From the NCBI GenBank assembly GCA_000002445.1, contig CM000208.1, forward strand, positions 2,880,001 to 2,944,000: a stretch of DNA of 64,000 bases, in the 5' to 3' direction. Positions 26,195 through 50,690 of this stretch are shown one piece after another. Under the pieces are notes generated by a model. The model was not told the origin of the DNA and ran no database searches. It worked only from the letters and a program-made list of their open reading frames with translations. The translations under genes and the position numbers were made by a program. This DNA comes from Trypanosoma brucei. Lineage: Eukaryota. Numbering within the stretch: position 1 is the first letter of the stretch; every line of letters starts with the position of its first letter.

Positions 26195-28573
26195 ATGGGG
26201 TCACCAACCCCAAACGTGCGAAGAGCGATGATTGCAGTGAGCCGGCGGCTGAAGCTTCGTCGACCACCGCGCACGCCCTCCGCAGGGGCAGTAGCAAGGG
26301 GAAGTTGCATAGAACAAACCTCCTCACATTTTGTAACGGCTGCTGTTGAGAGGCTCCACAGCCAAGTTGCACCCGTAACGCCCACACATGCTTCGCACAT
26401 GGACTCTCACAAGAGGGATCTACCGTGTCTGCTGCGCACGTTCCTCGACCAGGGGCACGCACCGCAGTTATCTTCGTCTGTTGTTTCATGTGCTGTCTCC
26501 TCCAAGCAGATTATTGGAAAAACCGCCAAATCAGCAGGGTTGGCTCGGAATGATGCAGAGGATATGCTAATGCAGTATCGACCGAAGATTGATTCCGCGT
26601 TGGTGCGGCGCGTCGCTTGTGCCATGGACGTGGAAGGGGCGTTACGGCGAGCCAGGAAATTGACGCAAGCGCTTCGCGAAGGTGGGGAGCTTGACAAAAT
26701 GCTCTCAAGTTGTGTATCGGTTTCCTCGCAGGTCACAAAGCAGGAGATGGAGCTGCAAGCGGGAATAGCGGCGCGGTTTCATCAGCAGGCCCGGGCCAAG
26801 CGGCAGATGAAACTACGCGGGTTTCGGCTGTCCACTAGTGACATTCAGGTGTCAGAAGTGCTTCCTGATGGGAATATAGTCACTTTTACAAATCCGACGC
26901 TTCCAAGTGCTGCGGGCACGTGCAGCAGGAAGTCTTCTTTGGACGGCAAACAGTTACCATACCTTTACTTTGTACTTTACAAAGAAAATATTTCGCTTGG
27001 AGACGCATTCAGGCTCTTGAGCGAAGTATCCGAAGGGATGTGCCGTCTCGAAGACTTCGCGGTGAATGTGGCACTCGAAGAGTCTGCTGTCACTGCGCAA
27101 CTCTGCAGCGTGCGCATTGCCCTGCTTAATGATGAAACCCACGGAATACGGCGATCAGCCGCGGTGAAGAAACTTCTCAGAGTGAACTTGCGACCCTTAC
27201 GACTTAGTGTTCAGCTAATCGGTTGGAGAGACCGCCCGTGCGAACCTGCCTCTAGCGGCATGTCCCAAGCCCAATACAGCATGCTTATTAGGGGAATCAG
27301 CGCGAATGAGCCAACTCACTTGGAGAGAAAGGTGCTGGCCAGATTCACGGCGTTTCCGAACTTCTTTGGGCCACGCCACTTCGGGCCATTTTGTTTGTTT
27401 CGCACTTACCACGCAGCTGCCGCGTGGGAACGGGGTATGCATGCGGAGGCACTCGTTATAGGAGCCTGCTTGAGTTATGCCGACAGCATTACATCGGGGA
27501 GTGGTTGGATAGGCAAATTGGTGGAAATTCTCCGTCAAGGCGAGGATCGCCTTGGCGTACTGAAAGAGTGGTACCAGTTTAACGTTCCCCACAGGCTGAG
27601 GGCGCAGATTGCTTCAAGTAAAGCTGCCCTGGTATGGAATGTGCTTGCAAGCTGCCGTATTCTTGAGTTGGGGGCGTGCACCATGGAAAGGTCCCCTGAC
27701 GTTGGGGATTTTGTGGTGGATGGAGGTCGTTGCCCTGCCCAAGTTGAGGAAACTGTAGAGAAGGTGGAACTCTTTCCAGAGTGTGGTTGCGGAAAGTGGA
27801 ATAGCCCCCCGTCCGTGGAGCGAAAGGGTAGGGATTGCGCAAATACTGAGGTTGTGAAATTCATCTCCACTCAAGAGGACGCTGCCCCGTACACGATACA
27901 TAATATTGTTGTACCGTTGGGCGCGGAAACTAATGGGGAGGTAAGAGGTCTGTTAATGCAACTGGGCTTCCGTCCCACCTTACATCCGGTTGAGCACTCG
28001 CAGAAACCGGTTGGTCACCGCCCACTCTTTGCAACGGGTAGTGGGTATCCGCGTGCAGCTTCTCCGTGGGTAAAGGCTCTGCCTGAGCTAACTGGAGGCA
28101 TTGCTGGGGACAACGGAGGTGTTTTTAGGCTGCTCACAGATGTAGAAATGCGCCAAAGCAGCAGCTACACAGCCCTGTCGAGAGGCCGGATGCGTGGAAT
28201 TTGGCCAGTGGGAAAGTATGGCTACCGGTTGACGGATCGCTTGCCCGCTGGAATCGTCTCTCTTGCCGCGTCGGACGCGACGTGGCGCGGAACCAGATGT
28301 CTTGCCATGCACTTCACCTTGCCAACACAAGTGTATAGCATGTCCCTCTTCCGAGAGTTCGTAGACATTGAGGACCTTACCGAAGTGACGGATCGCGTAT
28401 CTTCGGCAGGCGATAACAGGAAGGTGGAAGGATCACCTCCTGTAAGGGTGAATACAGCGTCAGTGGAAGGTAAGGGAATGGCAAGCGACCCTGGTCAGGG
28501 ATTTGTGGACGGCGATTTGATGGGTTTGAAGCGCAGAGTATCGGATGCGGGTGCAACAAATGCCGGTAAATAA
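26195..28573 (+). CDS. Putative pseudouridine synthase of the TruD/Pus7 family (tentative) with a mitochondrial-presequence-like N-terminus.
   Basis: FTAFPNFFGPRHFGPF resembles TruD motif NYFGxQRFG. I could not locate the catalytic GxKDxxA motif. The N-terminus MGSPTPNVRRAMIAVSRRLKLRRPPRTPS is Arg-rich and amphipathic. Confidence 0.4.
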   Translation: MGSPTPNVRRAMIAVSRRLKLRRPPRTPSAGAVARGSCIEQTSSHFVTAAVERLHSQVAPVTPTHASHMDSHKRDLPCLLRTFLDQGHAPQLSSSVVSCAVSSKQIIGKTAKSAGLARNDAEDMLMQYRPKIDSALVRRVACAMDVEGALRRARKLTQALREGGELDKMLSSCVSVSSQVTKQEMELQAGIAARFHQQARAKRQMKLRGFRLSTSDIQVSEVLPDGNIVTFTNPTLPSAAGTCSRKSSLDGKQLPYLYFVLYKENISLGDAFRLLSEVSEGMCRLEDFAVNVALEESAVTAQLCSVRIALLNDETHGIRRSAAVKKLLRVNLRPLRLSVQLIGWRDRPCEPASSGMSQAQYSMLIRGISANEPTHLERKVLARFTAFPNFFGPRHFGPFCLFRTYHAAAAWERGMHAEALVIGACLSYADSITSGSGWIGKLVEILRQGEDRLGVLKEWYQFNVPHRLRAQIASSKAALVWNVLASCRILELGACTMERSPDVGDFVVDGGRCPAQVEETVEKVELFPECGCGKWNSPPSVERKGRDCANTEVVKFISTQEDAAPYTIHNIVVPLGAETNGEVRGLLMQLGFRPTLHPVEHSQKPVGHRPLFATGSGYPRAASPWVKALPELTGGIAGDNGGVFRLLTDVEMRQSSSYTALSRGRMRGIWPVGKYGYRLTDRLPAGIVSLAASDATWRGTRCLAMHFTLPTQVYSMSLFREFVDIEDLTEVTDRVSSAGDNRKVEGSPPVRVNTASVEGKGMASDPGQGFVDGDLMGLKRRVSDAGATNAGK

Positions 28574-32149: not shown

Positions 32150-33573
32150 TGACGGACACGTAAAAGCCACAACGCCCCCAGCGATCTTAAAGTTTGGAAT
32201 GTGGTCCGAGCAACGCCCACGAGCGTAGGGCCGAACCATCCATCAGTGATGGGAGGGCGCTTGTGGTCCAGGAAGCGCAATAAGCACCGACGATGTGAGG
32301 GACGGTACCCACTCTGTCACTCGTATGCTTGTGCCTACTCGGGCGTTGATTCCGTTTGCTTTTTTCTAACATTTGCGCCCGTTAAAGGCAAAGTAGTGAA
32401 GTAATCTCCCCTTCCAAAGAAAGAAAAAAAAAAGGAAAACCACAAATCCCTTTGGGTGGAAGGTGTGGCCGGTTCAACCACTTCATTCCGCTATGCTGCC
32501 TTGAAGTCTCCGCGGAAGCGGAGGCTACTTGTTCGCGCCTTTCTGTGGCGAAAATGAAAATTACTAAACCTCAAGTTTGGCGTCCCCACCACTCAAGCCA
32601 TGCCTTGTTTCCTCTCTGTCGTCCGCAGCCGTTTCATGGAGCTCCGCCAGGAGGAGCCAAGCTCGCAACAACGCAGCAATTTTGTGCCTAAGAGTCCCAA
32701 TCCATCCGCATTAATGCCGCTCCCGGGCGCCGGCATCCAGCCCATTTGCCCCCAGCTCCCAAATGCTAACCATGCGGAAACGGAGAGAAGCGCGATTCAA
32801 GCTGGCAGGCATGCATTTTTCGCTACCAAATTCAGCAGCCGGCCCCATACCGCGGTGACGGCCAGGATGAGTGAAGGTAAGTCAGCCACCCTTGGCTACA
32901 CTTTTTTGCTTCTCTGGGCTCTCTTAAGCCCTCACCTACTAATCCCACCCCCCAAAAAACAACAGTGCACCTGTCCAACCGGACCCGCCCAGTGACCCCT
33001 GCCTTCTACAAGTACGGTTATACAAGATTTGAAAAAAGGAAGTGAAGAGGGATATCGCTCCACAGGCATGTACGGTGCCGCCAACGCGGATGCGGGAAAG
33101 CCAGCAATGAAAAGGGAAGAGGGTTGGATCCCATCCGTTTAACGAGGTTCTGCAGTTCGTGCTCCTACCTTATCGGTAATTGGACATTTGTCCTTTCTTT
33201 CCTTTTAGGGGATGCTTGAGGGGGGGAAGGTCCACCAGCGGTATCGCTAAGGGCGGGTGGCGCGTGTCAACACGCTCAGGGGGTTTAGACTGCGACGACA
33301 AGGTGCCGACAACCGGCGGTTCTGTGTCATGGCTCGCTTCCCCAACTTCGTTCCCGTTTGCATCCGTAGCGGTAAACAAAAATACAACCGGAGGCAAACC
33401 GTGCGGCAACCGGTGAAGCGGGGATAGGATGCTGCTTGCTTTTTGCACTGCTCCACGACTTTCCGTCAATCCAGTCCAGTCGATTACATGTTGCTTCACA
33501 AAAACCCACGGCTAGTTCGTGCGAAAACGGCATCGAAACTACAGAACAGTCGCGACGTCCTTCCTCAGCTGAC
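32150..33573. other. Convergent strand-switch region where + strand and - strand polycistronic units meet. It is a presumptive RNA Pol II termination zone with no credible ORF.
   Basis: All genes left of 32149 are on + and all genes right of 33574 are on -. Only short overlapping ORFs with no coding signal lie between them. Confidence 0.65.
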
Positions 33574-36268: not shown

Positions 36269-39037
36269 TCATTTCATGTTTTGTCGATGGGCCTTGCTCT
36301 TTAAGTGCTGTTCCCACACGCGCACTGCAACGTTTCGGCGGCAAACCCTACACATGACCTTTCCCGCCTTACGAGGGTTGGTAACTTCGTCCCTCGACAC
36401 GTGCCGTGGGGGCACACGATCCTTTCTTAAGTTCCGCGGGTCTTCCATACGTTCATGCTTCAAGGGATAACCAGGAAAGTGAGTGTCTAGATACTCCTGG
36501 AAGTTGTTCTTCTGACGGTCCTCGTAGAGCGCTTTAAAGCGATCATACGAGTCTGTGATGAAGGTAGCTTCCCCTGGGAGAATCTTTCCATCCTTGTCAC
36601 GTCCTTTCTTCCATTTGAGCCCGAAAGGTTTGCAGAGCCTGTCGAGCTGCTTCTGCTTGGCGGGGTCTAGTCGCAGTTTGGTGCATGCATCGCACTGGTT
36701 AACGTGCATCAGCACACCGCAGAGCCTCTCGAACGGGGTCGCATCCAGCCCAATGTAGCCGCCCTTGTGCACGTCGAGTGGAGGCACACTTCCATGGGCC
36801 TCCAGATACTCGCGAAGAGTATTCAAACACTCCTCCCACGGGTATGGACCGTGGAGTCCGTAAGTCCGCCACAGAGGGAGTGATTCCAGGTCGCGTATTT
36901 GGTGCATCCTCAAACAGGAGGGTTCTTTGTCCAAGTACTGACGGTATCCCTTTCGGCAGTAACGGTAAAAGAGAGCCATTGAAACCGATTTCTTTCCAAT
37001 AACCCAAGCATCGTTTGTTTTGGGATATCTATTGCACTCTAGCACAATGCGTTTCATTTCGTTGAAGGCATTCTTCCACGGAAGTCGCGTCGCGCGGTGC
37101 AATCGATCCGTGTTCTGGCTTGAGTAGCGCACCCCACGCCTGATGGCGGGAAGAACGAACCTTCGTAGCCGTTCAGATGACAGCTTGAGGGACCTCACAC
37201 CCACGACATCAACGTCGTAGGACACTTTATGAGGGTCAATCAAATACTCAAACAGCAGCGGATCTTCGTCCATCAAAGCATCTGTAAAGGGGACAAGCGT
37301 GGAAAACTTCTCCAGATTGACGGGGTGATCTTCCGGCAGCCTCTTGTTGATGGTGGCGGGAAGGAACACGTAGGAAATGGGCTTGTTTTCCATTTTATTG
37401 AGCGGTCGGCATATACTCTGAACAATGTCACGGGAGCTGTAGCGCGGGGCGGCAAAAAATACGGCGTTGAGGTCGGGAATCTCCACCCCTTCCTGGAGTA
37501 AACGAACGTTTAGCAATAGGCAACGTCTGGATGCTGAAAAATCTCTCAAAACACTAGCAACGGCGGCGCTCCCCATCCGAGAATGGGCGAGCAACACATC
37601 GAAGGGCGTTATATCATCAGGGAGGGGATGCTTCAGATCCGCCGCAAGCTTTGTCGCGTGCTCAATGCACCTACAGTAGACGATCATCTTGTCCACGGTA
37701 TTCATAGCTTCATAAAAGTATGGATTCATGTCATCCATGCTCTCGCCCAATACAATTCGCACCGCAAAAGGGTTCACGTAACCAGCGTCGATGCCCTCCC
37801 GCAAATAGTACCGATACGCTATGTCACCAAACAGATACGTGTTGTCCATTTTTAGTGGCGTATCGTATGCTGGTGTTGCAGTGAGGAATAATCTCCGTCC
37901 GCAGCGAGGTTGGAGGAGGACGTTATTGAAATTAGTGGGTAAGTCACTCCCACAAACGCGGTGACATTCATCAAATACGGTGAGTGCAAAATTTGGCATT
38001 TTTGAGATTATGTGCGAAGACTGATATGTGCTAATAACAATCAAATGTGAGGCACATGAGCTGATGGTGCTCCTAATCAATTCAGCGTCAGTCGTCATGT
38101 TACGAACACAGCCGTCCCCCATGAATATGCTTCCGCTGTCTGACCCTATAAGAAGAAATGGAACATCCTTCAAACCATAGCTATAAAGCTTCCGAGCTGT
38201 CTGCCGCAAAAGCGCAAGGCCTGGAACCAGGTAAAGAATGATGGAATTTGGTTTCATCTCCAAGTGCCGACGAATGAGATCATATGCCACTGGGGTCTTC
38301 CCGCAACGGCACGCCATTTGACAAATTGTGGCGCCACAACTATCGAGCTGCTCAAGGCAACGAGCTACAGCATCCTTTTGATACGGACGAAGCGCCGCCA
38401 AACTAAACGTCTCTTCTCCCAACGCATCCACAACCTCAAAATCACAGCCAATTTCATAGTCTTCCCCGTCTCCTGTCTCAACACTGTTGAAAATATCATC
38501 GTCAGTCGGTGCATCACATGGAGAATTGAGAGAAACCATGGACTCACGAAGCTTTTCCAGTGATCCCATGTACTTTTCCAGGGTGTGCAATTTCGGAGCC
38601 TCCGCCTCACGCCGGGAGTTTTTCTCAGTCGAGATCCGTCCACTGCTCGCATAGTCGGGTGGTAAGCTGTTCTTTTCAATATAAACGGGTGCCATGTTCA
38701 CCAGTGCGTTTAAGTTGAGCGTGCTACAAACACGTCGGGCACCCTCGGTAACATCTTGCGCATCGCCTTTTATAAGCTCTCGCTGTGGGACGCGCCTTTC
38801 TTTGAACAGAAACAGCACAGCTTGTTCAAGGAGGAACGCCTCTTTCATGCTTTCACAACGGAAAACAGCGTAGTACGACCATTCGGGTGTGAAGCACGTT
38901 GTGAACGAAGCCATTTCTAGGCGGCGGGTAAAGTCCGCTGTGCACCCAACCTTCACGTAGCCGGAGCCCGTCAACCATGGGTGGACGGCAACGTAAAAGC
39001 CAAGGCCACACCTAACGAGCACGGTCAGGCGGACCAT
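36269..39037 (-). CDS. Fusion protein of an N-terminal T5orf172 (GIY-YIG-like, MUG113) domain, an SF2 DExH helicase core, and a C-terminal U1/matrin-type C2H2 zinc finger.
   Basis: The N-terminus GLGFYVAVHPWLTGSGYVKVGCTADFTRRLEMAS ... YYAVFRCESMKEAFLLEQAVLFLFKERR fits the T5orf172 pattern. Helicase motifs present are LRPYQKDAV (Q/Ia-like), ACRCGKTPV (Walker A), TVFDECHRV (DExH), LFLTATP (motif III) and QSICRPLNK (motif VI-like). The C-terminus CRVCRRNVAVRVWEQHLKSKAH is a dsRNA-binding-type zinc finger. Confidence 0.7.
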   Translation of the reverse strand: MVRLTVLVRCGLGFYVAVHPWLTGSGYVKVGCTADFTRRLEMASFTTCFTPEWSYYAVFRCESMKEAFLLEQAVLFLFKERRVPQRELIKGDAQDVTEGARRVCSTLNLNALVNMAPVYIEKNSLPPDYASSGRISTEKNSRREAEAPKLHTLEKYMGSLEKLRESMVSLNSPCDAPTDDDIFNSVETGDGEDYEIGCDFEVVDALGEETFSLAALRPYQKDAVARCLEQLDSCGATICQMACRCGKTPVAYDLIRRHLEMKPNSIILYLVPGLALLRQTARKLYSYGLKDVPFLLIGSDSGSIFMGDGCVRNMTTDAELIRSTISSCASHLIVISTYQSSHIISKMPNFALTVFDECHRVCGSDLPTNFNNVLLQPRCGRRLFLTATPAYDTPLKMDNTYLFGDIAYRYYLREGIDAGYVNPFAVRIVLGESMDDMNPYFYEAMNTVDKMIVYCRCIEHATKLAADLKHPLPDDITPFDVLLAHSRMGSAAVASVLRDFSASRRCLLLNVRLLQEGVEIPDLNAVFFAAPRYSSRDIVQSICRPLNKMENKPISYVFLPATINKRLPEDHPVNLEKFSTLVPFTDALMDEDPLLFEYLIDPHKVSYDVDVVGVRSLKLSSERLRRFVLPAIRRGVRYSSQNTDRLHRATRLPWKNAFNEMKRIVLECNRYPKTNDAWVIGKKSVSMALFYRYCRKGYRQYLDKEPSCLRMHQIRDLESLPLWRTYGLHGPYPWEECLNTLREYLEAHGSVPPLDVHKGGYIGLDATPFERLCGVLMHVNQCDACTKLRLDPAKQKQLDRLCKPFGLKWKKGRDKDGKILPGEATFITDSYDRFKALYEDRQKNNFQEYLDTHFPGYPLKHERMEDPRNLRKDRVPPRHVSRDEVTNPRKAGKVMCRVCRRNVAVRVWEQHLKSKAHRQNMK

Positions 39038-40923: not shown

Positions 40924-41532
40924 TTAGGGGGATTCGGCAGCCACATCATGTTTTCCATCGGCCTGGTCGCGACCGTCTACTGAATGGGAAGAGTGACGAT
41001 CCGCCTCTGCAGTGCCGTCGGCCTGTTTCACGCGATCCGCATGACCTACACGGCAGTGCTCACCATATTGACAAGGTCGTCTCCCATCGTCTTCATGCAG
41101 GAAACGGCATGCATCGTAGAATTTACAATTCTTTTGGAGAAAAAAGCAGCAAGTTGTCTCTTTCTCCCAGCGCCTCTGTGTTTCCAATGACCCACCAACA
41201 AACGGCTTCTTTTTTCGTGCGCGAAGACCGAACCCACCGCGACCACGGTCACCGGTAGTGCCTCCCACGTAGGCACCACGTCCGTAGCCTCCACCACCAC
41301 GCCCACCGTTGTAGGGAGCCCTCCCACGGCCCATGTGCCCCAGAACGGTATTTTGAAATCCCTGGAAGTGCACCGGGTTGTAAGCCCCCTGGGGGTACGA
41401 ATGGTAGTAACCCCCCTGCGGGTAGTGCGTTGGGGCGTGATACTGTTGAGGCGGGTAGCCCACATGGCTATAGGTGTTGTATCCACCGTATCCTCGGTTG
41501 GGTACAAGTTGCGTTTGACCAAATGGTTGCAT
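40924..41532 (-). CDS. CCCH-type zinc-finger RNA-binding protein with an N-terminal Tyr/Gly/Gln/Pro-rich region and an RGG/GYGRG low-complexity region. The ORF-track start at 41574 is TTG; the ATG is at 41532.
   Basis: CCFFLQKNCKFYDACRFLH fits C-x7-C-x5-C-x3-H, and a second partial finger is PCQYGEHCRVGH. The low-complexity N-terminus includes GYGGYNTYSHVGYPPQQYH...RGGGGYGRGAYVGG. From unverified memory only: the gene order relative to GCS is reminiscent of T. brucei ZC3H34. Confidence 0.65.
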   Translation of the reverse strand: MQPFGQTQLVPNRGYGGYNTYSHVGYPPQQYHAPTHYPQGGYYHSYPQGAYNPVHFQGFQNTVLGHMGRGRAPYNGGRGGGGYGRGAYVGGTTGDRGRGGFGLRARKKKPFVGGSLETQRRWEKETTCCFFLQKNCKFYDACRFLHEDDGRRPCQYGEHCRVGHADRVKQADGTAEADRHSSHSVDGRDQADGKHDVAAESP

Positions 41533-41862
41533 TCCCACAGGTAGAAGATCAATGCGCGTACGAGTGCTATTCAAAGGCGAGTGAACCCGCAGAAGAAAGA
41601 AGAGAGGAAGTGAGGGAAGAGAATGTGGAAATGTAGACGAATGGTTAGCGAATTATGTGCTTCACATTTTGCTGTCGGCACCCTCTCCTGCTTAAAGCGG
41701 GCAAAGAGGTTGGGGGCAAAAAAAATGAACGCAAGTACCGTAAGGATGAAGTCGAACGAACGTTACACACCGTAGCGTTCGCACACATAATGTACACTGG
41801 CACCTTAACCGACTGTTACATACCATTCCGCGGTGATCACTGTCCGCCTCCTGAAGAAGAAA

Positions 41863-44574
41863 TTAGATGTCCTCCTTAACAGTGCAGTCCAGTGATAGAT
41901 GCGGTAAACCGCAAACAGAACATTCGGGTGCCATTTGCAAACCATTTTCACAGTTAGGACACAGCAGCACGTCGGTGGGAAGATTATCGCTCCCGCAAGA
42001 GGCACAAACCCACGGAAGGAAGCGCGCCCTGCACTCATACTGACTTCGCGCCCGCGCTTCCCTACACGAAATGCAGTGGTCCGACCAACTATAATTCCAC
42101 TGCCCACAAACGTGCGTCCCCGTCACAGCAGTGGCGGGAGTTGTTTCGCGAAGGCATCTCCATACATACACGTCAGCTGCCGCAACATCCTCCCGTGGCG
42201 CGCGGCACGACGTGCACTGAAAACCAATCTGTGCAGGTTTCTGCCCACAGTGACTGCAGCAAAACGGTCTGAGTTCATCGTAACAAAGGCGTGTGTGGCA
42301 AACGTTGCAGCACTCCTCCGAGAGCATGCTTTCACGCGTGTACCCCACACCACACCTGTGGCAATGGCGAGGGAGAAATGGGGAGCAAAGTACATTACAA
42401 TCTCGGGGATGAACATTGCCACAACGCTCACACACAATCAAACGTAGTTTTGAGTTGTGCAGCGGAACCTCAATCGCTTTTTGGCATGTTGACACGATGC
42501 TGCAGCATGCACAAGTGTAAGCGCCGCGGTGCAACAGAGAGCAACTCTCGCAACTCGTCCGACAGGGATGGTTCCGCCCGCCACACCCGCACACCCACGG
42601 CTGCAACGGGGTCACAATGCAGCCCACCTTTCGTTTTCCGGGGCAATGCTGGCATTTCGACCAAGCCGAATGATTAAACTCACCACAAGCATCACAGTGC
42701 CAAAGCAAAGAACTCTTTGCCTCGTTGGCTGCATAGCAAGTGGGGCAGCACAGTGCTTGCTTACTGTATAAGCAACCACAGGAGGGGCATTCCCTCGTCG
42801 CTTGCTTCTCGCGATCTATTTCCCCACACTTGCCACATTCACCTGTGGGAGGTAATATCTCTCCGCAGCCCTCACAAACTCCGACATCCATCAACTCCGC
42901 CTCTCGCATCCTCGGGTGTGGTGAACCGCAGTTGCAAACCGTCTCAACGACCCTGCCGCTGTGCCGGGCGCCACAAACCCCACAAGTCCACGAAATATTC
43001 CCTTGTCGAAGGCAGGTTAAGCACCTCTGTGCGCAAGAGGGGAGTTGCGTACCACAACCGCAACGCCACCAAAACTGAGACCTTTCCATCACTTTGAAAT
43101 CTTCGAGTAGGCGCCGAACCATCGGATTATCACCCAGTCGTATCCCACTCAAACACCTCGAAGGAAAGTAGTCAGCCTGGAGGTTAGCAGTTATGTTCTG
43201 CACAATGGAACAACCAAGTTCACCGTGGGCCTTCCATATCTCGCTCATGATGGGAATAAGGCTGTCTATAACCCACAGAAAGTTGATACTTGGGTGCTCC
43301 TTCAGAAATCGATAGAATTCAGATACAGCAGTGGCCGTTTCCTTGAGGGAACGAACCCCAACAACGCTGACCAAAAGACGAACAACTTGAGAAAAGGCAG
43401 ACTTGTCCACGATAACCGGGTGTCCCAGGGAAGCACACACGTGATACGCTTCAACCACCCTTATGTACACCATGGATTGAGGCTTCAGTGTTATGGCGCC
43501 CTTGAAAAAGATAACCCAAACCGACTGCAAATTGGATTGGCAACTTCCGTAAAGACGAACCGCGAGAGTTGTTACCGCAACTATTTTACGCCAGATTCTG
43601 GCGTCATCACCACCGTCGTCGGCCTCCCCTGTCGCCCCTGCATCCACTAAGCTCCCAACGCAGCGAAGAAGGTACGACAGTGGAAGTTTGGTCTCAAGGG
43701 CTGGAATTTTTGCAAGAAGCTCATCGTGCAGAGACATTAGAGCCTCCCCCCGCCACTGTCGCATGTAAATCCGGCTCAGCTTGTTCAGTATAGGCGTCCA
43801 ACGAACTGACAAGTAGTCAAATGAGTCACCTATTTTACCAATGATGCAGCGAAGGATGGCGTCCATTTCATCGAAATGGTGAGATGTAAAGAAGTTGTCG
43901 CTCGACAACAATCCCTCTACACATGCACAAAACAACCCCTTGCTTATTCCTTCATCACTGCTACATCTTTCCAACTCACGACGAACAACACATTCAAGCA
44001 GAGTCGGGATTGCAGGCACTGACAGCAGCAACTGAACTATGTGGAGTGGAACAGGGCCACGAAACTCCTCTAACTCGGACGAGATTGTCGCGAACTGCTT
44101 TCCGCCATCGTCATTAGTTGAGGCCCATGCGGCATTCAGGAACGAAACCACCAGCTGAATACACCTTGTGTCACGATGTGGGCGAACAGCCGGGCACGAT
44201 GCGCCAAAACACCGTAATGTAAGTTGTGCATATCGACAGCCAGCAACAGATGTACCACCAAAAAGGTTTGCCTCATGTGCTGTCATAAAGGCGCCATCAG
44301 TTTTCAACGCCAATAGCAACAATGGAAGGCGCACATCGTCCGGAGAATGCGGTGCGCCTCCCGCCCACAGAGCAATCGCAGTAAAAGGATAAAAGCTATG
44401 CGACAGGCCCGTGATGCACACACCGCCATTTGCAAAATAATCACTTATGCCTCCCGAAATTTCTCGCTCAAACACCAGACGTTCCTCCATTTGAAACACT
44501 GACGATGACGGAAGGGTAAGTGCTTCTCTCGGTCGGCGCATCACTCTTTTTACTACAGGGCGCCATCTTCTCAT
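41863..44574 (-). CDS. Large protein with a helical N-terminal half and a C-terminal array of about 12 Cys4 modules, including at least 4 canonical RanBP2-type zinc fingers.
   Basis: WHCDACGEFNHSAWSKCQHC and WVCASCGSDNLPTDVLLCPNC match W-x-C-x2-C-x3-N-x6-C-x2-C. Further WxCxxC...CxxC units are WTCGVCGARHSG...CNCG and WVCGCGGRNHPCRTSCESC. About 70 cysteines lie in the last 450 aa. Confidence 0.65.
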   Translation of the reverse strand: MRRWRPVVKRVMRRPREALTLPSSSVFQMEERLVFEREISGGISDYFANGGVCITGLSHSFYPFTAIALWAGGAPHSPDDVRLPLLLLALKTDGAFMTAHEANLFGGTSVAGCRYAQLTLRCFGASCPAVRPHRDTRCIQLVVSFLNAAWASTNDDGGKQFATISSELEEFRGPVPLHIVQLLLSVPAIPTLLECVVRRELERCSSDEGISKGLFCACVEGLLSSDNFFTSHHFDEMDAILRCIIGKIGDSFDYLSVRWTPILNKLSRIYMRQWRGEALMSLHDELLAKIPALETKLPLSYLLRCVGSLVDAGATGEADDGGDDARIWRKIVAVTTLAVRLYGSCQSNLQSVWVIFFKGAITLKPQSMVYIRVVEAYHVCASLGHPVIVDKSAFSQVVRLLVSVVGVRSLKETATAVSEFYRFLKEHPSINFLWVIDSLIPIMSEIWKAHGELGCSIVQNITANLQADYFPSRCLSGIRLGDNPMVRRLLEDFKVMERSQFWWRCGCGTQLPSCAQRCLTCLRQGNISWTCGVCGARHSGRVVETVCNCGSPHPRMREAELMDVGVCEGCGEILPPTGECGKCGEIDREKQATRECPSCGCLYSKQALCCPTCYAANEAKSSLLWHCDACGEFNHSAWSKCQHCPGKRKVGCIVTPLQPWVCGCGGRNHPCRTSCESCSLLHRGAYTCACCSIVSTCQKAIEVPLHNSKLRLIVCERCGNVHPRDCNVLCSPFLPRHCHRCGVGYTRESMLSEECCNVCHTRLCYDELRPFCCSHCGQKPAQIGFQCTSCRAPREDVAAADVYVWRCLRETTPATAVTGTHVCGQWNYSWSDHCISCREARARSQYECRARFLPWVCASCGSDNLPTDVLLCPNCENGLQMAPECSVCGLPHLSLDCTVKEDI

Positions 44575-44880: not shown

Positions 44881-45678
44881 TTATTTTTCACTACTCTGTT
44901 GGAAAAACTTTTTACTCACTTCGACCAACGAAGCCGCCCCTTCCACACTGCCAGTCGCAGTGTAATCCGTGGAGAGCACTTTCGAAATATAAGGATCTAA
45001 GGTGCTGCAACTTCTTTCTTCATCATATCCTCTTACGCGCACCCGCTCGAGGGTACCGGAGTCAATCGCCTCTAGCAACGCATGAAGGGACGGGAAGGCG
45101 CTCTTAATGATGGAGGCACGGTGTTCGGAAACCGTAGCAATTTCAGAAAGCATGTCAAGGTACAATGTGTCGAAATCCGTAGGGTCGCACTTACGCCGTC
45201 CATCCATGCGGACCAGATTCTGGCCGACTTTTGGGTCCTTAGTAGCTTTCATACCGTGGGCCACGACGATTTCGTCAGAACGCTCAACAGATGATGCGAA
45301 GTCGATTCCAACCAAAACATCCAGCAAGTGGGGGTCGGTGCATAACTGCGCCACACCCGTCCAGAAGGGGGGACACCTCGGCCCTGTTGGGTAGCCAATA
45401 ACAACAATGTATATGGGACAAGCGGTTGCACGATGTGCCGCCTTCAAATAGTCATGCGCACAATCACTTCGGAAGAGCAACTGCAAGTCACTGCACGTAA
45501 TAAGAAGGAGTAACAGATAGGGGTTTCCATCTCTTTCCACAACCACCGTGTTTGGTACAGCGTTATGCCTTTTGTTGACAACAAGAGAAGTGACACCGCC
45601 CTGGCCCGAAGCTACAATGCGTGAAACCGCCTCGAAAAGATCATCACACGTGCTATCAACAGTTAGCGCCACGCGCAT
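44881..45678 (-). CDS. Hypothetical protein.
   Basis: A 265-codon ORF with an ATG start on the sense strand of the transcription unit. No confidently recognisable domain. Confidence 0.5.
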   Translation of the reverse strand: MRVALTVDSTCDDLFEAVSRIVASGQGGVTSLVVNKRHNAVPNTVVVERDGNPYLLLLLITCSDLQLLFRSDCAHDYLKAAHRATACPIYIVVIGYPTGPRCPPFWTGVAQLCTDPHLLDVLVGIDFASSVERSDEIVVAHGMKATKDPKVGQNLVRMDGRRKCDPTDFDTLYLDMLSEIATVSEHRASIIKSAFPSLHALLEAIDSGTLERVRVRGYDEERSCSTLDPYISKVLSTDYTATGSVEGAASLVEVSKKFFQQSSEK

Positions 45679-47334: not shown

Positions 47335-47847
47335 TCAAATGTTGTTGGTATCGGAAAGCATTTGCAGCGCTTGCTTCACGTTAGCTTCCGTCAATCCAGT
47401 TGTCGCATTCGTGACGATGGCGTGCCGCGCGAAGAAGTTGCGATCAGGGGCGCTGAGTGGTAAGTTAATATCGTCCAGAGCAACGAAGTTGACAATATTG
47501 TACTTTCTTTTGTTAGAATCAATCCACGACAGTATTTCCACAGACCTTGGTTTATCCGGAAGCGTCGGGGTGCAGTCGATGAAAACTGGCATGCCAAACT
47601 GGGTGAGCTGACGGGCCACTTCTTTCCGCCCAAAATCTGTTGTGCGCCACGAGCTGCTCAACACAATTTGCGCTCCCGACCCGTTTATTATATCAGCGAG
47701 GAACTTCATCTGCCTTGGGGCAAACAGCGGCCCCCCAAAGGGTGACACAACGCCATCACAGTCAAGGAACACAATTTTAAGGGGTGCGTTGTTGAAGGGC
47801 ACAGCGTTTGTGGCCGTGTTTCCGGATTTTGCTTTTGTTGCTTTCAT
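47335..47847 (-). CDS. Small HAD-superfamily hydrolase (phosphatase-like). The ORF-track start at 48093 is TTG and runs through a polyY tract; the first ATG is at 47847.
   Basis: KIVFLDCDGVVSPF is HAD motif I (DxDG), IVLSSSWR is motif II (S/T), and the late acidic motif is ALDDINL. Confidence 0.55.
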   Translation of the reverse strand: MKATKAKSGNTATNAVPFNNAPLKIVFLDCDGVVSPFGGPLFAPRQMKFLADIINGSGAQIVLSSSWRTTDFGRKEVARQLTQFGMPVFIDCTPTLPDKPRSVEILSWIDSNKRKYNIVNFVALDDINLPLSAPDRNFFARHAIVTNATTGLTEANVKQALQMLSDTNNI

Positions 47848-48650
47848 GTCGCGGTTTACACTATTTAAAAAAAAATAATAAATAATAAATAAATGACAGA
47901 AGCGCTGGAGAAGATCAAACCAACGGAGATGTGTGAAGGAGGAAGGCGGAAGGTGTTCCTGGAAAATAATATGGGTGCTAGGAAGGTAAATAACTAAACG
48001 GAAGCAAACACACGAGTAGAAACTACACGAGAGGTTGCTGCGTATGTATATCCCTTTACTTCTGGCGGTCCCTTTTAATGGGAATATCACCAAAGCGGGA
48101 TTTCAACAAAGTGAAAAAAATTAAGGAGGGCAAAAAAAAAAGTTAAAGGTTAAAATAATGGTGACAGAACGGAAAAGGGGTTTAAACGCTAAGAATTGTG
48201 CTATCCTGTTTGCCCTTGTCAGGAAGCAGTCATGTTCTACCTTTCGTGCGCTCCGTTCTCGTTGAACAGTTTCACATATTAAAAAAAAAGTAAAACCAGA
48301 AGCAGAATTTTGAATATAAAAAAACTGATGAAAAGGTACATGGGTGTGTTAGTTTAGGTATATATAAAAGCTTGGGTGGGAGCAGGCGCATCGATGGATG
48401 CAACTGCCTCCCTGTAACAGTGTTACTACGTTAAAATTCCAGTAGGATGCCCCAAAATTCGATGACTGCGGCACTAGGATGGGGTTGAACGTAAAAGTGT
48501 GACTAAGCGATCTGCTACTCAACCGCAGCGACCCGTCCCCCAAACGCCGTAGGCACTCTCGCTCGTTTTACCGTAACCACCGGGTAGCTTTTACCCCAGT
48601 AATGTTTTTCCTTCGCCATTACCCCCTTTATTTAATGCGAATCCACCCTT

Positions 48651-50690
48651 TCACCCTTCGCGTTGTCTTTTACTCCCCAATGTATAAGCACCAATCATCG
48701 ACTCGCTCGCATTACCACCGCACGCGAGCTGATGAACGTGGTTAACCACATCATGGGCAATCTGTTCTGTCAATCGCGAATCTTCCCTGTAGTCAGGGTG
48801 CTTCTTAACAAAGTTCCTCAAGTACTGCGCCGCTGTTGGTATCTCCCCACACGCTCGTTTAGAAATAAAGTTTAAGTAGCCCTCGACCACATCGCTTTGA
48901 ATGTTTTCCTCCTCTAGGTACCGACGAACAAGTGGAATTAGGCCATAGTACTCACCAGGCTTTCCATTGATAACTTCCCCAACAGTGAGCTCACAGTTTT
49001 CGCTGGGATCAGTAGTTACTTTGGATGCGAATATGTCACGCCTCATGATATAATGCTGCTGGCACGGGTTGATGTTGTGCGCACGGCCCATATTTTCATC
49101 AACAATGCTTAATTTTGTGTAAAAAACGGCACCAAACCTCATAATGGCACGCGTAAGTAACACAACGAAAACAGAGTATGCTGCGTTTTCAAATGGTGTT
49201 GGCATCACGTCCATTACACGAAACTCCACACGCCACCCAAGCGTGCTGTCAAGCACGGGAAGTTTCAAACGAACAGTTTGCCAATTTGTGCTTTGAATAT
49301 TTTCAAAGTGGTCCACGTGTGTGTGGTCGTCTATGTCTATCATCTGGTCGTAGATGACAAGAGGGTCTCGAATGAAGAGATGCGCAATATGTGTGGCCAA
49401 ACGGGAGTCCACACCTTCCCTAGTGAGTAAATTGTAATAAGAGTCGTTTATCCTGAGCACCTCGTCGTTGAACTCCTCCAGGTTTGGCGTCAATGAACTG
49501 ACAAATACAGAAATTGAGTCATAACGCGACTTGATAATGTGCGGCACCTCCTCATACTTGCGGTCATCAACGGAGGCGGTGATCGTCAACCAGCGAACGT
49601 CCGACTCGCAGAGAATGCCCTTTTGAAACGGGGTTGCTGAGCTTAAGGCAAGAAATAAAGGGCATAATATCCCCAGTTGGTCGTATATATGACGCGCCTG
49701 CGCTTCATTAGGAAGCTGCATGGTAAGCTGAAGGCAGTTGCAGCCCATCCCAAAGGCCATACAATCCATGTAAATGCAAGGGTGGTTTACAGATGGAACG
49801 GGACAGGGGCAAGCCTGGTACCGCTGCTTCACTCGCTCCGCCTGAAGGTTTTGAAAGTATTGAGCATAGTAGTAGTGCGTAACAGGCGTGTAAAGATGTG
49901 TCATATTCGTTACTGCTTCATTTTCTAGAGGAACGCGTTTCGGAGTGATGGTATCACATGAAAATTTCTTTCCCTTCGAACTAGTCTTCTCACCCGAAAA
50001 CGTACAAACAATTTCAACGTTACGGGGATGTAGATCAATATTTACACGCGGGTCTACCGTCCTCTCCATGGTGTACCTGTCAATAAACATCGGTACCTGA
50101 ATGCAAACCTTTCGTCCACGGCGTAGACGAATATTGTTCGTGAGAGCCTTGAAACGAGGATGAGAATCATTGATACACGCATCCGGTACGAAAAGAGACT
50201 GGGAGCACGGTGATTCGGTTTCCGTTGACGTGGTGAAACCACCAACACCCATCAATGGAAACGTGACCAACGTAACAGCGAATGTGTTGTCACCAGCGGC
50301 AGCGTCCAACATGTGGTAACGCCGCCGCATGTTTACTTCCACAGAACACAATGAATCCACATTCGACGAGTATGGCTTGCCGGGGAGGCTCTCGACCATA
50401 AAACTCCCATATTCTGGGCGCCATTCTGCAGTACTCTCGCCGCTGCTTTGACTAAGGCGTTTGATAACGTCCGCAGCGTTAAGCGATAGTTTGACTTTGC
50501 GGCTCTCAAGGCGCACGAGCTGGTGTTCAATTTCGTCTCCCCATAGAAACGGGAAATCAGGTAGCTCCTTCTGTTTGTTGTACACCCACAGAAACTGTTG
50601 AATGCCATGTGCTGACACGTACTCTTTGGCACGATTGTTTTCCTCTGTACCCCACTGCAGAGGCTGGCCGCCAGTGGTTAGAAGACCCAT
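48651..50690 (-). CDS. GSH1: Gamma-glutamylcysteine synthetase (glutamate-cysteine ligase catalytic subunit), the first step of glutathione/trypanothione synthesis.
   Basis: It is 679 aa. MAFGMGCNCLQLTMQ and RWLTITASVDDRKYEE match eukaryotic GCLC signature blocks. Length and architecture are those of trypanosomatid gamma-GCS. Confidence 0.9.
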   Translation of the reverse strand: MGLLTTGGQPLQWGTEENNRAKEYVSAHGIQQFLWVYNKQKELPDFPFLWGDEIEHQLVRLESRKVKLSLNAADVIKRLSQSSGESTAEWRPEYGSFMVESLPGKPYSSNVDSLCSVEVNMRRRYHMLDAAAGDNTFAVTLVTFPLMGVGGFTTSTETESPCSQSLFVPDACINDSHPRFKALTNNIRLRRGRKVCIQVPMFIDRYTMERTVDPRVNIDLHPRNVEIVCTFSGEKTSSKGKKFSCDTITPKRVPLENEAVTNMTHLYTPVTHYYYAQYFQNLQAERVKQRYQACPCPVPSVNHPCIYMDCMAFGMGCNCLQLTMQLPNEAQARHIYDQLGILCPLFLALSSATPFQKGILCESDVRWLTITASVDDRKYEEVPHIIKSRYDSISVFVSSLTPNLEEFNDEVLRINDSYYNLLTREGVDSRLATHIAHLFIRDPLVIYDQMIDIDDHTHVDHFENIQSTNWQTVRLKLPVLDSTLGWRVEFRVMDVMPTPFENAAYSVFVVLLTRAIMRFGAVFYTKLSIVDENMGRAHNINPCQQHYIMRRDIFASKVTTDPSENCELTVGEVINGKPGEYYGLIPLVRRYLEEENIQSDVVEGYLNFISKRACGEIPTAAQYLRNFVKKHPDYREDSRLTEQIAHDVVNHVHQLACGGNASESMIGAYTLGSKRQREG

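What the first reader, a model, noticed from the sequence alone, without database searches (positions are those of the whole stretch)
41863..44574. Protein with a tandem array of about 12 Cys4 zinc modules, including canonical RanBP2-type fingers
The C-terminal 450 aa contain about 70 cysteines arranged as repeated W-x-C-x2-C ... C-x2-C units. At least 4 match the RanBP2 ZnF signature exactly (W-x-C-x2-C-x3-N-x6-C-x2-C). RanBP2 fingers bind ssRNA or ubiquitin. Such a long array attached to a helical N-terminal domain is uncommon and suggests a multivalent RNA-binding or ubiquitin-binding scaffold. It lies immediately next to a CCCH/RGG RNA-binding protein gene.
Basis: seen in the sequence. Interest (0 to 1): 0.55.

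Follow-up and report, generated by a model that had tools for sequence, protein, structure and literature searches.

The report
Kinetoplastid protein with twelve zinc modules
This is Tb927.10.12340, an unstudied trypanosome gene for a helical-repeat domain followed by twelve small zinc-binding modules descended from RanBP2-type fingers; it probably binds RNA, but nothing about it overturns current ideas.

Summary
The ORF is real: window 41863-44574, minus strand, 903 aa. It is Trypanosoma brucei Tb927.10.12340 (UniProt Q389A9), annotated 'hypothetical protein, conserved' and already named 'RanBP2-type domain-containing protein' by UniRef.

The C-terminal 400 aa hold twelve four-ligand zinc modules (eleven Cys4, one Cys2-His-Cys). 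Their ligands are almost invariant in 19 homologues spanning Kinetoplastea.

Only one module (M5) fits the signature exactly. M6, M10, M11 and M1 are near-variants, and seven modules are plain zinc ribbons. No family member reaches Pfam's RanBP threshold.

The underlying idea still holds. A prokinetoplastid homologue has seven modules with the RanBP2 core plus one x7 variant, so the array looks like a degenerated tandem duplication of that finger.

The ubiquitin-binding (NZF) motif is absent. The most conserved module, M10, matches only the FUS RNA-binding finger among PDB sequences.

The N-terminal half is a PPR-like alpha-solenoid behind an Arg-rich, acid-poor N-terminus that resembles a mitochondrial presequence.

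Best reading: a multivalent single-stranded-RNA-binding protein, possibly mitochondrial, analogous to MRB6070 and the plant OZ factors. No experimental data were found. Adjacency to ZC3H34 is conserved synteny and carries no functional meaning.

The parts
41863..44574 (-). Complete CDS of Tb927.10.12340 (903 aa plus stop). The TREU927 annotation starts at Met12 (892 aa).
   Evidence: ORF list. 100 % identical to XP_823439.1/Q389A9. The gene table gives Tb927.10.12340 as 2679 nt on the minus strand, and the neighbouring gene lengths match the window ORFs.
44485..44574 (-). Arg-rich, nearly acid-free N-terminus (MRRWRPVVKRVMRRPREALT...), a candidate mitochondrial presequence
   Evidence: M1, R3, W4 and K9 are invariant in 7 Trypanosoma species. 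Family-wide net charge is +6.2 per 25 aa against a background of 0.25 +/- 2.0. AF2 confidence is low here. The targeting function is inferred, not shown.
43099..44400 (-). All-alpha helical-hairpin solenoid domain (aa ~59-492); its most conserved core is aa ~250-400
43012..43068 (-). M1: W-x-C-G-C-G-x2-L-x6-C-x2-C, a CxC-knuckle RanBP2-like variant with Asn replaced by Leu in Trypanosoma
   Evidence: Ligands C505/507/518/521 are present in 19/19 sequences and the loop is fixed at 10 residues. Asn is present in divergent homologues (CGCGxxNP). Paralogue of M6.
42928..42990 (-). M2: W-T-C-x2-C-x12-C-x-C-G, followed by a (N/H)PR motif
   Evidence: Ligands C531/534/547/549 in 19/19 sequences. HMM cross-hits to M11.
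42826..42876 (-). M3: C-x2-C-x9-C-x2-C plain zinc ribbon (canonical RanBP2 pattern in the prokinetoplastid homologue)
   Evidence: P0032 reads WYCTLCRKINPSGQTKCGSC at this module.
42736..42789 (-). M4: C-x2-C-x10-C-x2-C zinc ribbon
   Evidence: Ligands in 19/19 sequences. Pfam Zn_ribbon_3 at 14.8 bits, below threshold.
42643..42702 (-). M5: the only exact RanBP2-type signature (WHCDACGEFNHSAWSKCQHC)
   Evidence: Regex match. PF00641 at 19.2 bits, E 7e-4, on the isolated module. The profile hits TAB3, Nup153, FUS, ZRANB2, RBM10 and RanBP2 fingers.
42541..42597 (-). M6: W-x-C-G-C-G-x2-N-x6-C-x2-C, a CxC-knuckle RanBP2-like variant with Asn retained
   Evidence: Reciprocal HMM hits with M1. No significant PDB hit.
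42400..42519 (-). M7: Y-T-C-x2-C-x23-C-x2-C-x3-HPRD, a long-loop zinc ribbon
   Evidence: Ligands in 19/19 sequences, loop 21-33 residues. AF2 predicts a beta-hairpin in the loop (low confidence).
42298..42363 (-). M8: C-x2-C-x14-C-x2-C zinc ribbon; the third ligand is replaced in 7/19 homologues
   Evidence: P0032 has a canonical RanBP2 pattern in the corresponding region (WGCVSCNFTNLSPSIECGSC).
42205..42258 (-). M9: C-x2-C-x10-C-x2-C zinc ribbon
42064..42162 (-). M10: W-x-C-(x15)-C-G-x-W-N-Y-S-W-x3-C-x2-C, a RanBP2 core with an insertion in the first knuckle and a FUS-like aromatic loop. It is the most conserved module family-wide.
   Evidence: Its core profile hits only the FUS ZnF (6g99) in the PDB, E 2.3e-3. 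N827 and W830 are invariant and W826 and S829 nearly invariant in 23 sequences. PF00641 at 13.9 bits.
41950..42012 (-). M11: W-x-C-x2-C-x3-N-x7-C-x2-C, RanBP2-like with one extra loop residue
   Evidence: The profile hits HOIP NZF (E 3.5e-3) and Nup153, but also PHD fragments. M11 plus M12 score 24.2 bits on DZR_2, below 27.
41884..41922 (-). M12: C-x2-C-x3-H-x4-C terminal knuckle (Cys2-His-Cys)
   Evidence: C885, C888, H892 and C897 are invariant in Trypanosoma and present in 17-18 of 19 homologues.

Best explanation
Tb927.10.12340 encodes a protein family found only in Kinetoplastea. Each member has three parts: an Arg-rich N-terminal extension, a PPR-like alpha-solenoid of about 430 aa, and a bead-on-a-string array of twelve independently folding zinc ribbons. 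Each ribbon should bind one Zn through two knuckles.

The array arose by tandem duplication of a RanBP2-type finger. In trypanosomatids most copies have degenerated. Five still show the RanBP2 core spacing (M1, M5, M6, M10, M11), and two of these (M1, M6) carry a family-specific C-x-C first knuckle.

The most likely function is multivalent binding of single-stranded RNA. M10, and M5 in most species, would use a FUS-like aromatic stacking platform. The solenoid would act as a second RNA-binding or protein-docking surface. The site of action is probably the mitochondrion, by analogy with the MRB1-associated RanBP2-finger protein MRB6070 and with plant organellar OZ-PPR editing factors.

Shown here: the architecture, its conservation, the RanBP2 ancestry and the lack of an NZF motif. 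Inferred only: zinc binding, RNA binding and mitochondrial location.
For: Architecture and conservation. The twelve ligand quartets are invariant or nearly so. Intra-module loops are fixed while linkers vary.

RanBP2 ancestry. M5 matches the signature exactly. The top 14 PDB hits of the M5 profile are all RanBP2/NZF fingers. HMM cross-hits link M1 with M6 and link M5 with M10 and M11. The prokinetoplastid homologue P0032 has 3 strict matches and 7 core matches, against 1 and 3 in T. brucei.

RNA rather than ubiquitin. TAB3 NZF has C-T-F-L-N where the M5 consensus has C-e-e-y-N. The M10 core profile hits only the FUS RNA-binding ZnF, with N-Y-S-W aligned to N-F-S-W. FUS F438 and W440 stack on the guanines, and an aromatic at this position is the criterion used for putative RNA-binding RanBP2 fingers.

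Mitochondrial hint. Family N-termini carry a net charge of +6.2 per 25 aa, are Arg-rich (102 R against 32 K), and have their first acidic residue at a median position of 28, although their sequences have diverged.

Precedents. MRB6070 has 5-6 RanBP2 ZnFs and associates with MRB1 in an RNA-dependent way. OZ1 is a RanBP2-ZnF chloroplast editing factor.

Distribution. The family occurs across Kinetoplastea, including Prokinetoplastina. An exhaustive profile search found 38 representatives; every one that could be identified (nine species) is a kinetoplastid and all that were read share the family's module motifs, but most are unnamed metagenome or read-archive proteins.
Against: No experimental data for this gene could be retrieved. 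It is absent from the main text of every paper in the library.

It is not listed in the ATOM40-dependent mitochondrial importome tables or in the compiled mitoproteome file. That file may be incomplete, because it holds no Tb927.10.123xx entries at all.

In the tethering-screen count tables it shows none of the read enrichment seen for its neighbour ZC3H34. The column meanings were not verified.

The GGU-specifying hydrogen-bond residues of FUS and ZRANB2 (N14, R19/R20, N24) are not conserved in any T. brucei module.

The AF2 model of the zinc region is unreliable (pLDDT 45) and its fold search was uninformative.

A basic N-terminus is not unique to this gene: 3 of 30 ORFs in the window reach a net charge of +7 or more. 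It could be a nuclear or nucleolar signal instead.
Confidence: 0.4

Rival explanations
1. The array is a multivalent ubiquitin- or polyubiquitin-binding scaffold. The zinc modules would act as NZF-type fingers, as in TAB2/3, HOIP, TRABID and Npl4.
For: The best single PDB hit of the M5 profile is the TAB3 NZF (E 1e-3). The M11 profile hits the HOIP/RNF31 NZF (E 3.5e-3). Tandem NZFs are known linkage-specific ubiquitin readers (established knowledge).
Against: The T-F dipeptide after the second Cys that defines ubiquitin-binding NZFs is absent from every module. TAB3 has C-T-F-L-N; M5 has C-G-E-F-N, M6 C-G-G-R-N, M10 C-G-Q-W-N and M11 C-G-S-D-N. The PDB hits are driven by the shared Cys/Trp/Asn scaffold.
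Confidence: 0.08
2. It is a nuclear or nuclear-pore protein-interaction scaffold. The fingers would bind Ran or other proteins, as in Nup153 and Nup358, and the basic N-terminus would be a nuclear or nucleolar localisation signal.
For: The M5 and M11 profiles hit Nup153 and RanBP2 fingers. The basic N-terminus is compatible with an NLS or NoLS. Trypanosomes lack Nup153 and Nup358, and the zinc-finger nucleoporin NUP149 has non-homologous fingers.
Against: The main text of the trypanosome NPC proximity-mapping paper does not mention this gene. N-terminal basic character is conserved without sequence conservation, which is more typical of presequences than of an NLS. The solenoid resembles PPR proteins more than karyopherin or HEAT proteins among natural hits.
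Confidence: 0.15
3. The zinc ribbons are mainly structural or bind DNA. The protein would be a kinetoplast-DNA-associated or chromatin-associated factor, not an RNA binder.
For: The family is restricted to Kinetoplastea, the clade defined by kDNA. Seven of the twelve modules have no RNA-binding-type features. Other zinc-knuckle proteins such as UMSBP bind kDNA (mentioned).
Against: The gene is not in the supplementary tables held for the genome-wide kDNA-maintenance screen. No similarity to any DNA-binding zinc family was detected. The best-conserved module resembles an RNA-binding finger.
Confidence: 0.1
4. The cysteines do not bind zinc. They would form disulfides in a secreted, surface or intermembrane-space cysteine-rich domain.
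For: Cysteine content is very high (13.7 %).
Against: The cysteines are arranged almost entirely as paired CxxC or CxC knuckles 9-14 residues apart, which is the zinc-ribbon hallmark. There is no hydrophobic signal peptide or transmembrane segment at the N-terminus (sequence). One ligand position is an invariant His (H892). No EGF, TNFR or CX9C-type pattern was significant.
Confidence: 0.03

Closest known systems
RanBP2-type zinc finger (Pfam PF00641 Zn_ribbon_RanBP; PROSITE W-x-C-x(2,4)-C-x3-N-x6-C-x2-C), RNA-binding subclass typified by FUS, EWS and ZRANB2
   Same: M5 fits the signature exactly. M1, M5, M6 and M10 have the exact C-x10-C loop, and M5, M6 and M10 have the Asn at the right position. 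M10 shares the FUS N-[FY]-S-W aromatic loop and hits only FUS in the PDB.
   Different: No module reaches Pfam's gathering score. M1 and M6 have a C-x-C first knuckle instead of C-x(2,4)-C. M10 has a 15-residue insertion and M11 an x7 loop. The GGU-specifying Asn and Arg residues are missing. Twelve modules in tandem exceeds the arrays recalled from memory (about 8 fingers in RanBP2/Nup358, 4 in Nup153).
T. brucei MRB6070 (Tb927.2.6070), RNA-dependent associate of the mitochondrial RNA-editing accessory complex MRB1
   Same: It is a kinetoplastid protein described as carrying 5-6 tandem RanBP2-type ZnFs that are thought to bind RNA. It is the nearest functional precedent in the same organism.
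   Different: MRB6070 is small (31 kDa) and has no solenoid domain. The target has not been reported in MRB1 purifications.
Plant organelle zinc-finger (OZ) editing factors, e.g. OZ1, which work with PPR proteins
   Same: RanBP2-type fingers act in organellar RNA editing together with helical-repeat (PPR) RNA binders. The target joins RanBP2-derived fingers and a PPR-like solenoid in one chain.
   Different: OZ1 has two fingers, not twelve. In plants the PPR partner is a separate protein. The target's solenoid has no detectable PPR motif. Organellar location of the target is only inferred.
Double zinc ribbon domains (Pfam DZR PF12773, DZR_2 PF18912)
   Same: M11 plus M12 align to DZR_2 over 40 residues (24.2 bits). 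Other family members hit DZR at 17-26 bits.
   Different: All scores are below the gathering thresholds (27 and 27.3 bits). These families are generic descriptors of consecutive zinc ribbons and have no defined function.
NZF ubiquitin-binding fingers (Npl4, TAB2/3, HOIP, TRABID)
   Same: They share the RanBP2-type scaffold and give the top PDB sequence hits for M5 and M11.
   Different: The T-F ubiquitin-contact dipeptide is absent from all twelve modules.

Membership tests
RanBP2-type zinc finger (PROSITE PS01358 pattern) | W-x-C-x(2,4)-C-x(3)-N-x(6)-C-x(2)-C | tested here: met
   Met by one module only (M5, W625-C644). M6, M10, M11 and M1 each fail by one or two elements.
RanBP2-type zinc finger (Pfam PF00641) | Score at or above the curated gathering threshold (27 bits) | tested here: not met
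   No hit on the whole protein at E <= 10. Isolated M5 scores 19.2 bits and M10 13.9 bits. None of 7 orthologues hits. The best in any distant homologue is 22 bits.
RanBP2-type zinc finger | Profile-level similarity to experimentally solved RanBP2/NZF fingers | tested here: met
   M5 profile: the top 14 PDB hits are all RanBP2/NZF fingers, E 1e-3 to 0.1. M10 core hits FUS ZnF at E 2.3e-3. M11 is mixed. M1/M6 are not significant.
RanBP2-type zinc finger | Zinc-ribbon fold: two beta-hairpin knuckles coordinating one Zn with four Cys | tested here: inconclusive
   The AF2 model of aa 496-903 has pLDDT 45 and Foldseek found nothing with E < 0.1. Fixed loops and variable linkers support independent modules indirectly.
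NZF (ubiquitin-binding subclass) | T-F dipeptide immediately after the second Cys, plus a hydrophobic residue after the fourth Cys | tested here: not met
   TAB3 has C-T-F-L-N. The target has GEFN, GGRN, GQWN and GSDN.
RNA-binding RanBP2 fingers (ZRANB2/FUS type, GGU readers) | Aromatic residue directly after the conserved Asn (position 17), which stacks between the guanines | tested here: met
   Met in M10 (Y828; conserved Y in most of the family, and W830 aligns with FUS W440). In M5 it is H in T. brucei but Y or F in most other species. Not met in M1, M6 or M11.
RNA-binding RanBP2 fingers (ZRANB2/FUS type, GGU readers) | Hydrogen-bonding residues N14, R19/R20 and N24 that specify GGU | tested here: not met
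   M10 has Q, W, S and I at these positions. M5 has E, A, W and Q. M6 has G, C, R and E.
RING / B-box / ZZ / PHD (cross-braced zinc domains) | Eight interleaved ligands with a family-specific Cys/His order and spacing, detectable by Pfam | tested here: not met
   No such family appears at E <= 10 in whole-protein or per-module scans. Only partial PHD fragments hit the M11 profile. The ligand order of M11 plus M12 (C, C, C, C, C, C, H, C) differs from that of PHD. Large indels fall between modules.
Pentatricopeptide repeat (PPR) proteins | Tandem 35-aa PPR motifs detectable by sequence profile | tested here: not met
Mitochondrial matrix proteins of T. brucei | Cleavable N-terminal presequence and experimentally shown import | not testable with these tools
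   The presequence-like composition is shown. The gene is absent from the importome tables that are held. No TrypTag entry was retrievable.

The most novel reading that the evidence does not exclude
The protein is a kinetoplast-specific mitochondrial RNA-processing or editing factor that fuses two parts into one chain: a PPR-like helical-repeat RNA binder and a 12-unit array of RanBP2-derived fingers. Plants would have reached the same combination convergently with separate PPR and OZ proteins. With about 3 nt read per finger, the array could measure or clamp some 30-40 nt of G-rich pre-edited mRNA or of gRNA-mRNA intermediates. The C-x-C-knuckle fingers (M1, M6) would be a previously undescribed structural subtype of the RanBP2 fold.
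Probability: 0.12. Interest if true: 0.65.

Novelty: new variant of a known kind. Interest (0 to 1): 0.3.

Why it matters
Kinetoplastids control gene expression almost entirely after transcription, and their mitochondrial RNA metabolism depends on many lineage-specific RNA-binding proteins. A protein conserved across Kinetoplastea with twelve potential RNA-reading modules plus a helical-repeat domain is a plausible uncharacterised player, and it has no human homologue.

It also records how a RanBP2-finger array decays: canonical fingers in a prokinetoplastid, degenerate ribbons in trypanosomes. It further contains a conserved C-x-C-knuckle variant that domain databases miss.

As it stands, this is a refined annotation of a conserved hypothetical protein. 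No function has been discovered.

Tried and rejected
1. Pfam on the whole protein and on all 7 orthologues gave no RanBP, RING, B-box, ZZ, PHD or PPR hit, only DZR_2 at E 0.01.

2. The AF2 model of the zinc-rich half was unusable (pLDDT 45), and its Foldseek search against the PDB gave nothing below E 0.29.

4. The N-terminal domain profile found no PDB sequence.

5. The M1/M6 profile against the PDB gave only non-significant hits to archaeal eL40 and to TAB2.

6. Literature searches for Tb927.10.12340, Tb10.389.1400 and Q389A9 found no paper.

7. Supplement searches:
- ATOM40 importome: absent.
- TrypTag: absent from the held text, possibly truncated.
- hyperLOPIT: orthogroup table only.
- kDNA screen: absent.
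- Mitoproteome compilation: absent, but the file seems incomplete.
- MRB1 paper: no supplements held.

8. NUP149, the zinc-finger nucleoporin, was considered and rejected as the identity: it has a different size and non-homologous fingers.

9. A functional link with the neighbour ZC3H34 was rejected. The gene order is simply syntenic in T. grayi, and trypanosomatid polycistrons do not group genes by function.

10. The FUS structure paper could not be read by DOI. Residue roles were taken from two other papers.


Full report
**Identity of the locus**

The window holds an uninterrupted ORF at 41863-44574 on the minus strand, 903 aa. It is 100 % identical to a protein of Trypanosoma brucei brucei TREU927 and T. 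equiperdum (XP_823439.1, EAN78611.1, UniProt Q389A9). That protein is annotated 'hypothetical protein, conserved', and UniRef names it 'RanBP2-type domain-containing protein'.

The gene is Tb927.10.12340. Three results support this:
- A genome-wide table lists Tb927.10.12340 as 2679 nt on the minus strand. It is flanked by genes of 2769, 1212 and 609 nt on one side and 372, 513 and 2040 nt on the other. All but the 372- and 513-nt entries match the window ORFs; those two genes are longer ORFs here.
- ZC3H34 is Tb927.10.12330.
- The glutamate-cysteine ligase three genes away is GSH1, Tb927.10.12370.

The TREU927 model starts at Met12. However, M1, R3, W4 and K9 are invariant in seven Trypanosoma species, so the 903-aa form, as annotated in T. 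b. gambiense, is probably correct.

**Checking the observation**

The protein has 75 cysteines. Sixty-two lie in aa 451-903 (13.7 %) and 13 in the first 450 aa. The C-terminal half contains 19 CxxC pairs against 8.3 +/- 2.5 in shuffles (P = 1.5e-4). It contains 6 WxC against 1.4 expected (P = 5.5e-4).

In an alignment with six orthologues at 48-54 % identity, the cysteines fall into twelve four-ligand groups that are invariant:
- M1: 505/507/518/521
- M2: 531/534/547/549
- M3: 567/570/580/583
- M4: 596/599/610/613
- M5: 627/630/641/644
- M6: 662/664/675/678
- M7: 688/691/715/718
- M8: 738/741/756/759
- M9: 773/776/787/790
- M10: 807/823/834/837
- M11: 857/860/872/875
- M12: 885/888/H892/897

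So 'about 12 Cys4 modules' is correct. 'About 70 cysteines' is a slight overcount.

The claim of at least four exact RanBP2 matches is wrong. Only M5 (WHCDACGEFNHSAWSKCQHC) matches exactly. The near-variants are:
- M6: W-x-C-x-C-x3-N-x6-C-x2-C.
- M10: a 15-residue insertion between the first two cysteines.
- M11: x7 instead of x6.
- M1: a CxC knuckle and Leu in place of Asn.

**Domain-database tests**

Pfam finds no RanBP model on the whole protein, even at E <= 10. The only hit is DZR_2 at E 0.01. None of the seven orthologues does better.

Scanned as isolated peptides, M5 scores 19.2 bits on PF00641 (E 7e-4) and the second half of M10 scores 13.9 bits. M11 plus M12 score 24.2 bits on DZR_2. 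All are below the 27-bit gathering scores.

**Are the modules independent knuckles?**

I aligned 19 homologues that span the family and measured the spacing between successive ligands.
- Knuckles are fixed at x2. M1 and M6 have x1 in their first knuckle.
- The loop between the two knuckles is exactly 10 residues in M1, M5, M6 and M10 in all sequences. This is the RanBP2 C-x3-N-x6-C distance. In M11 it is exactly 11.
- Linkers between modules vary widely: 12-45, 17-39, 7-23, 14-29 and 19-42 residues.

This is the pattern expected for beads on a string with sequential ligation. It is not the pattern of cross-braced domains.

**Relationships among modules and to known fingers**

Module-specific HMMs show that M1 and M6 are reciprocal best hits (31-34 bits). 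M5 hits M10 and M11, and M2 hits M11. The other modules are related only through their cysteines.

Profiles were searched against all PDB sequences:
- M5: TAB3 NZF (E 1e-3), Nup153, FUS, ZRANB2, TAB2, RBM10 and RanBP2 fill the top 14 places.
- M11: HOIP NZF (E 3.5e-3) and Nup153, mixed with PHD fragments.
- M1/M6: nothing significant.
- M10 core, the most conserved module in the whole family (N and the second W invariant, the first W and S nearly so, in 23 sequences): only the FUS zinc finger, 6g99, at E 2.3e-3. C-G-q-W-N-Y-S-W aligns to C-E-N-M-N-F-S-W.

**Evolutionary origin**

An exhaustive profile search of 1.84 billion representative proteins found only 38 hits. Every hit that could be identified (nine species) is a kinetoplastid; most of the rest carry no name, and all that were read share the family's motifs. 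The named members outside Trypanosoma are:
- Leptomonas seymouri
- Strigomonas culicis
- Phytomonas sp. EM1
- Angomonas deanei
- Apiculatamorpha spiralis, a free-living member of Prokinetoplastina, which I recall as the earliest-diverging kinetoplastid subclass

In the Apiculatamorpha protein, modules that are plain ribbons in T. brucei read as canonical RanBP2 fingers. Examples are WYCTLCRKINPSGQTKCGSC at M3 and WGCVSCNFTNLSPSIECGSC at M8. That protein has 3 strict and 7 core matches, against 1 and 3 in T. brucei.

In divergent members M1 also carries the Asn (CGCGxxNP). The array is therefore best explained as a tandem duplication of a RanBP2-type finger followed by degeneration. The C-x-C first knuckle of M1 and M6 is an old, conserved variant.

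Some very long relatives (1265-1592 aa) keep the N-terminal core and only a subset of modules, always including M10 and M12.

**Which functional subclass?**

Ubiquitin-binding NZFs have T-F straight after the second Cys; TAB3 reads C-T-F-L-N in the alignment. The target has GEFN, GGRN, GQWN and GSDN. No module has this dipeptide, which defines ubiquitin-binding NZFs (recalled from the NZF literature, not checked here).

RNA-binding fingers carry an aromatic residue after the conserved Asn that stacks between guanines. In FUS, F438 and W440 stack, while N435, R441, N445 and D425 make the GGU-specific hydrogen bonds.

M10 keeps both aromatic positions (Y828, W830). M5 has Y or F at the first of them in most species, though H in T. 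brucei. None of the hydrogen-bonding residues is kept in any module. So there is a stacking platform without GGU specificity. RNA binding is plausible, but the target sequence cannot be predicted.

**The N-terminal half**

AF2 on a 7-sequence alignment gives an all-alpha model of about 24 helices in hairpins (pLDDT 73, pTM 0.68). The first 75 residues are disordered.

- PRORP1
- yeast Aep1 and Atp25

No PPR, TPR or HEAT motif is detectable by sequence. The similarity is therefore at fold level only.

The extreme N-terminus is Arg-rich and nearly free of acidic residues throughout the family, although its sequence is not conserved outside Trypanosoma. The figures are a mean net charge of +6.2 in 25 aa against 0.25 +/- 2.0 for internal windows, 102 Arg against 32 Lys, and a median first acidic residue at position 28. 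In this window 3 of 30 ORFs are as basic. This composition is what trypanosomatid mitochondrial presequences look like (established knowledge), but it is not proof.

**Context**

The downstream neighbour is indeed the CCCH/RGG protein ZC3H34, an activator in the tethering screen. The same gene order is found in T. grayi: DnaJ, GCS, HAD_SAK_2, a 260-aa gene, the target, a 203-aa gene, a 415-aa gene and the helicase. Genes in trypanosomatid polycistronic units are not grouped by function (established knowledge), so the adjacency adds nothing.

**Experimental information**

None was found.
- The gene's absence from the ATOM40 importome tables is mild evidence against an abundant mitochondrial protein.
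- In the tethering-screen counts the gene shows none of the read enrichment of ZC3H34. I did not verify what each column means.

**Interpretation**

Shown here:
- a Kinetoplastea-restricted family with a fixed architecture of basic N-terminus, alpha-solenoid and twelve zinc ribbons;
- descent of the ribbons from RanBP2-type fingers;
- absence of the NZF ubiquitin motif;
- a FUS-like aromatic loop in the best-conserved module.

Inferred:
- one Zn per module;
- multivalent ssRNA binding;
- mitochondrial location.

The nearest functional precedents are MRB6070, which has 5-6 RanBP2 fingers and an RNA-dependent association with the editing accessory complex MRB1, and the plant organellar OZ factors.

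I put about 0.4 on the RNA-binding scaffold reading as a whole, and somewhat less on the mitochondrial part taken alone. Rivals are a nuclear or pore protein-interaction scaffold (0.15), a DNA/kDNA-binding or purely structural role (0.10), a ubiquitin reader (0.08) and a disulfide-rich non-zinc domain (0.03).

**Verdict**

It refines the annotation of a conserved hypothetical protein that UniRef already flags as RanBP2-type.

The new elements are:
- the full 12-module map;
- the C-x-C-knuckle variant;
- the decay series from a prokinetoplastid to trypanosomes;
- the FUS-like M10 loop;
- the PPR-like solenoid with a presequence-like N-terminus.

Interest is modest (0.3). Novelty class: new variant of a known kind.

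Noticed in passing
window 44541-44574 (-): The TREU927 gene model (892 aa) starts at Met12. The upstream Met1 with MRRW is invariant in 7 Trypanosoma species and is used in the T. b. gambiense model (903 aa). The reference annotation probably cuts 11 residues from a possible targeting sequence.
   Followed up: partly
window 44881-45678 (-): Tb927.10.12350 is an intact 265-aa ORF here and in T. equiperdum and T. b. gambiense. In TREU927 it is annotated as only 123 aa (372 nt). It has no Pfam domain.
   Followed up: no
window 36269-39037 (-): Tb927.10.12310 (922 aa) combines an N-terminal T5orf172/MUG113 domain with a ResIII/DEAD helicase core and Helicase_C. This is an unusual nuclease-like plus helicase architecture for a trypanosome gene.
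   Followed up: no
window 47335-48093 (-): Tb927.10.12360 carries a HAD_SAK_2 domain ('HAD domain in Swiss Army Knife RNA repair proteins', E 1e-27). It sits next to GSH1 (48651-50690), and the same order is kept in T. grayi.
   Followed up: no
window ~32150-33570: A convergent strand-switch region. All long ORFs from 60 to 32149 are on the + strand and all from 33574 to 63922 are on the - strand. GC skew changes sign here. No tRNA gene was found anywhere in the window.
   Followed up: partly
window 40924-41574 (-): ZC3H34 (Tb927.10.12330) has a clear C-x7-C-x5-C-x3-H finger and RGG repeats by eye, yet gives no Pfam zf-CCCH hit at E <= 0.01. It is listed as an activator in the tethering screen.
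   Followed up: partly
window 26195-28573 (+) and 59397-61346 (-): Two other ORFs in the window have very basic N-termini. One has net +7 and is Arg-rich (MGSPTPNVRRAMIAVSRRLKLRRPP), a possible presequence. The other has net +8 and is Lys-rich (MAKEKKSFKKYAKKH...), which looks more nucleolar.
   Followed up: no
P0034, P0035, P0036, P0039 (homologues from read archives, 1304-1592 aa): These very long, low-complexity-rich relatives keep the solenoid core and only some zinc modules, always including M10 (CGQWNYSW) and M12 (C-x-E-C-G-L-P-H-x-S-x-Q-C-P). Their source organisms are unknown.
   Followed up: partly
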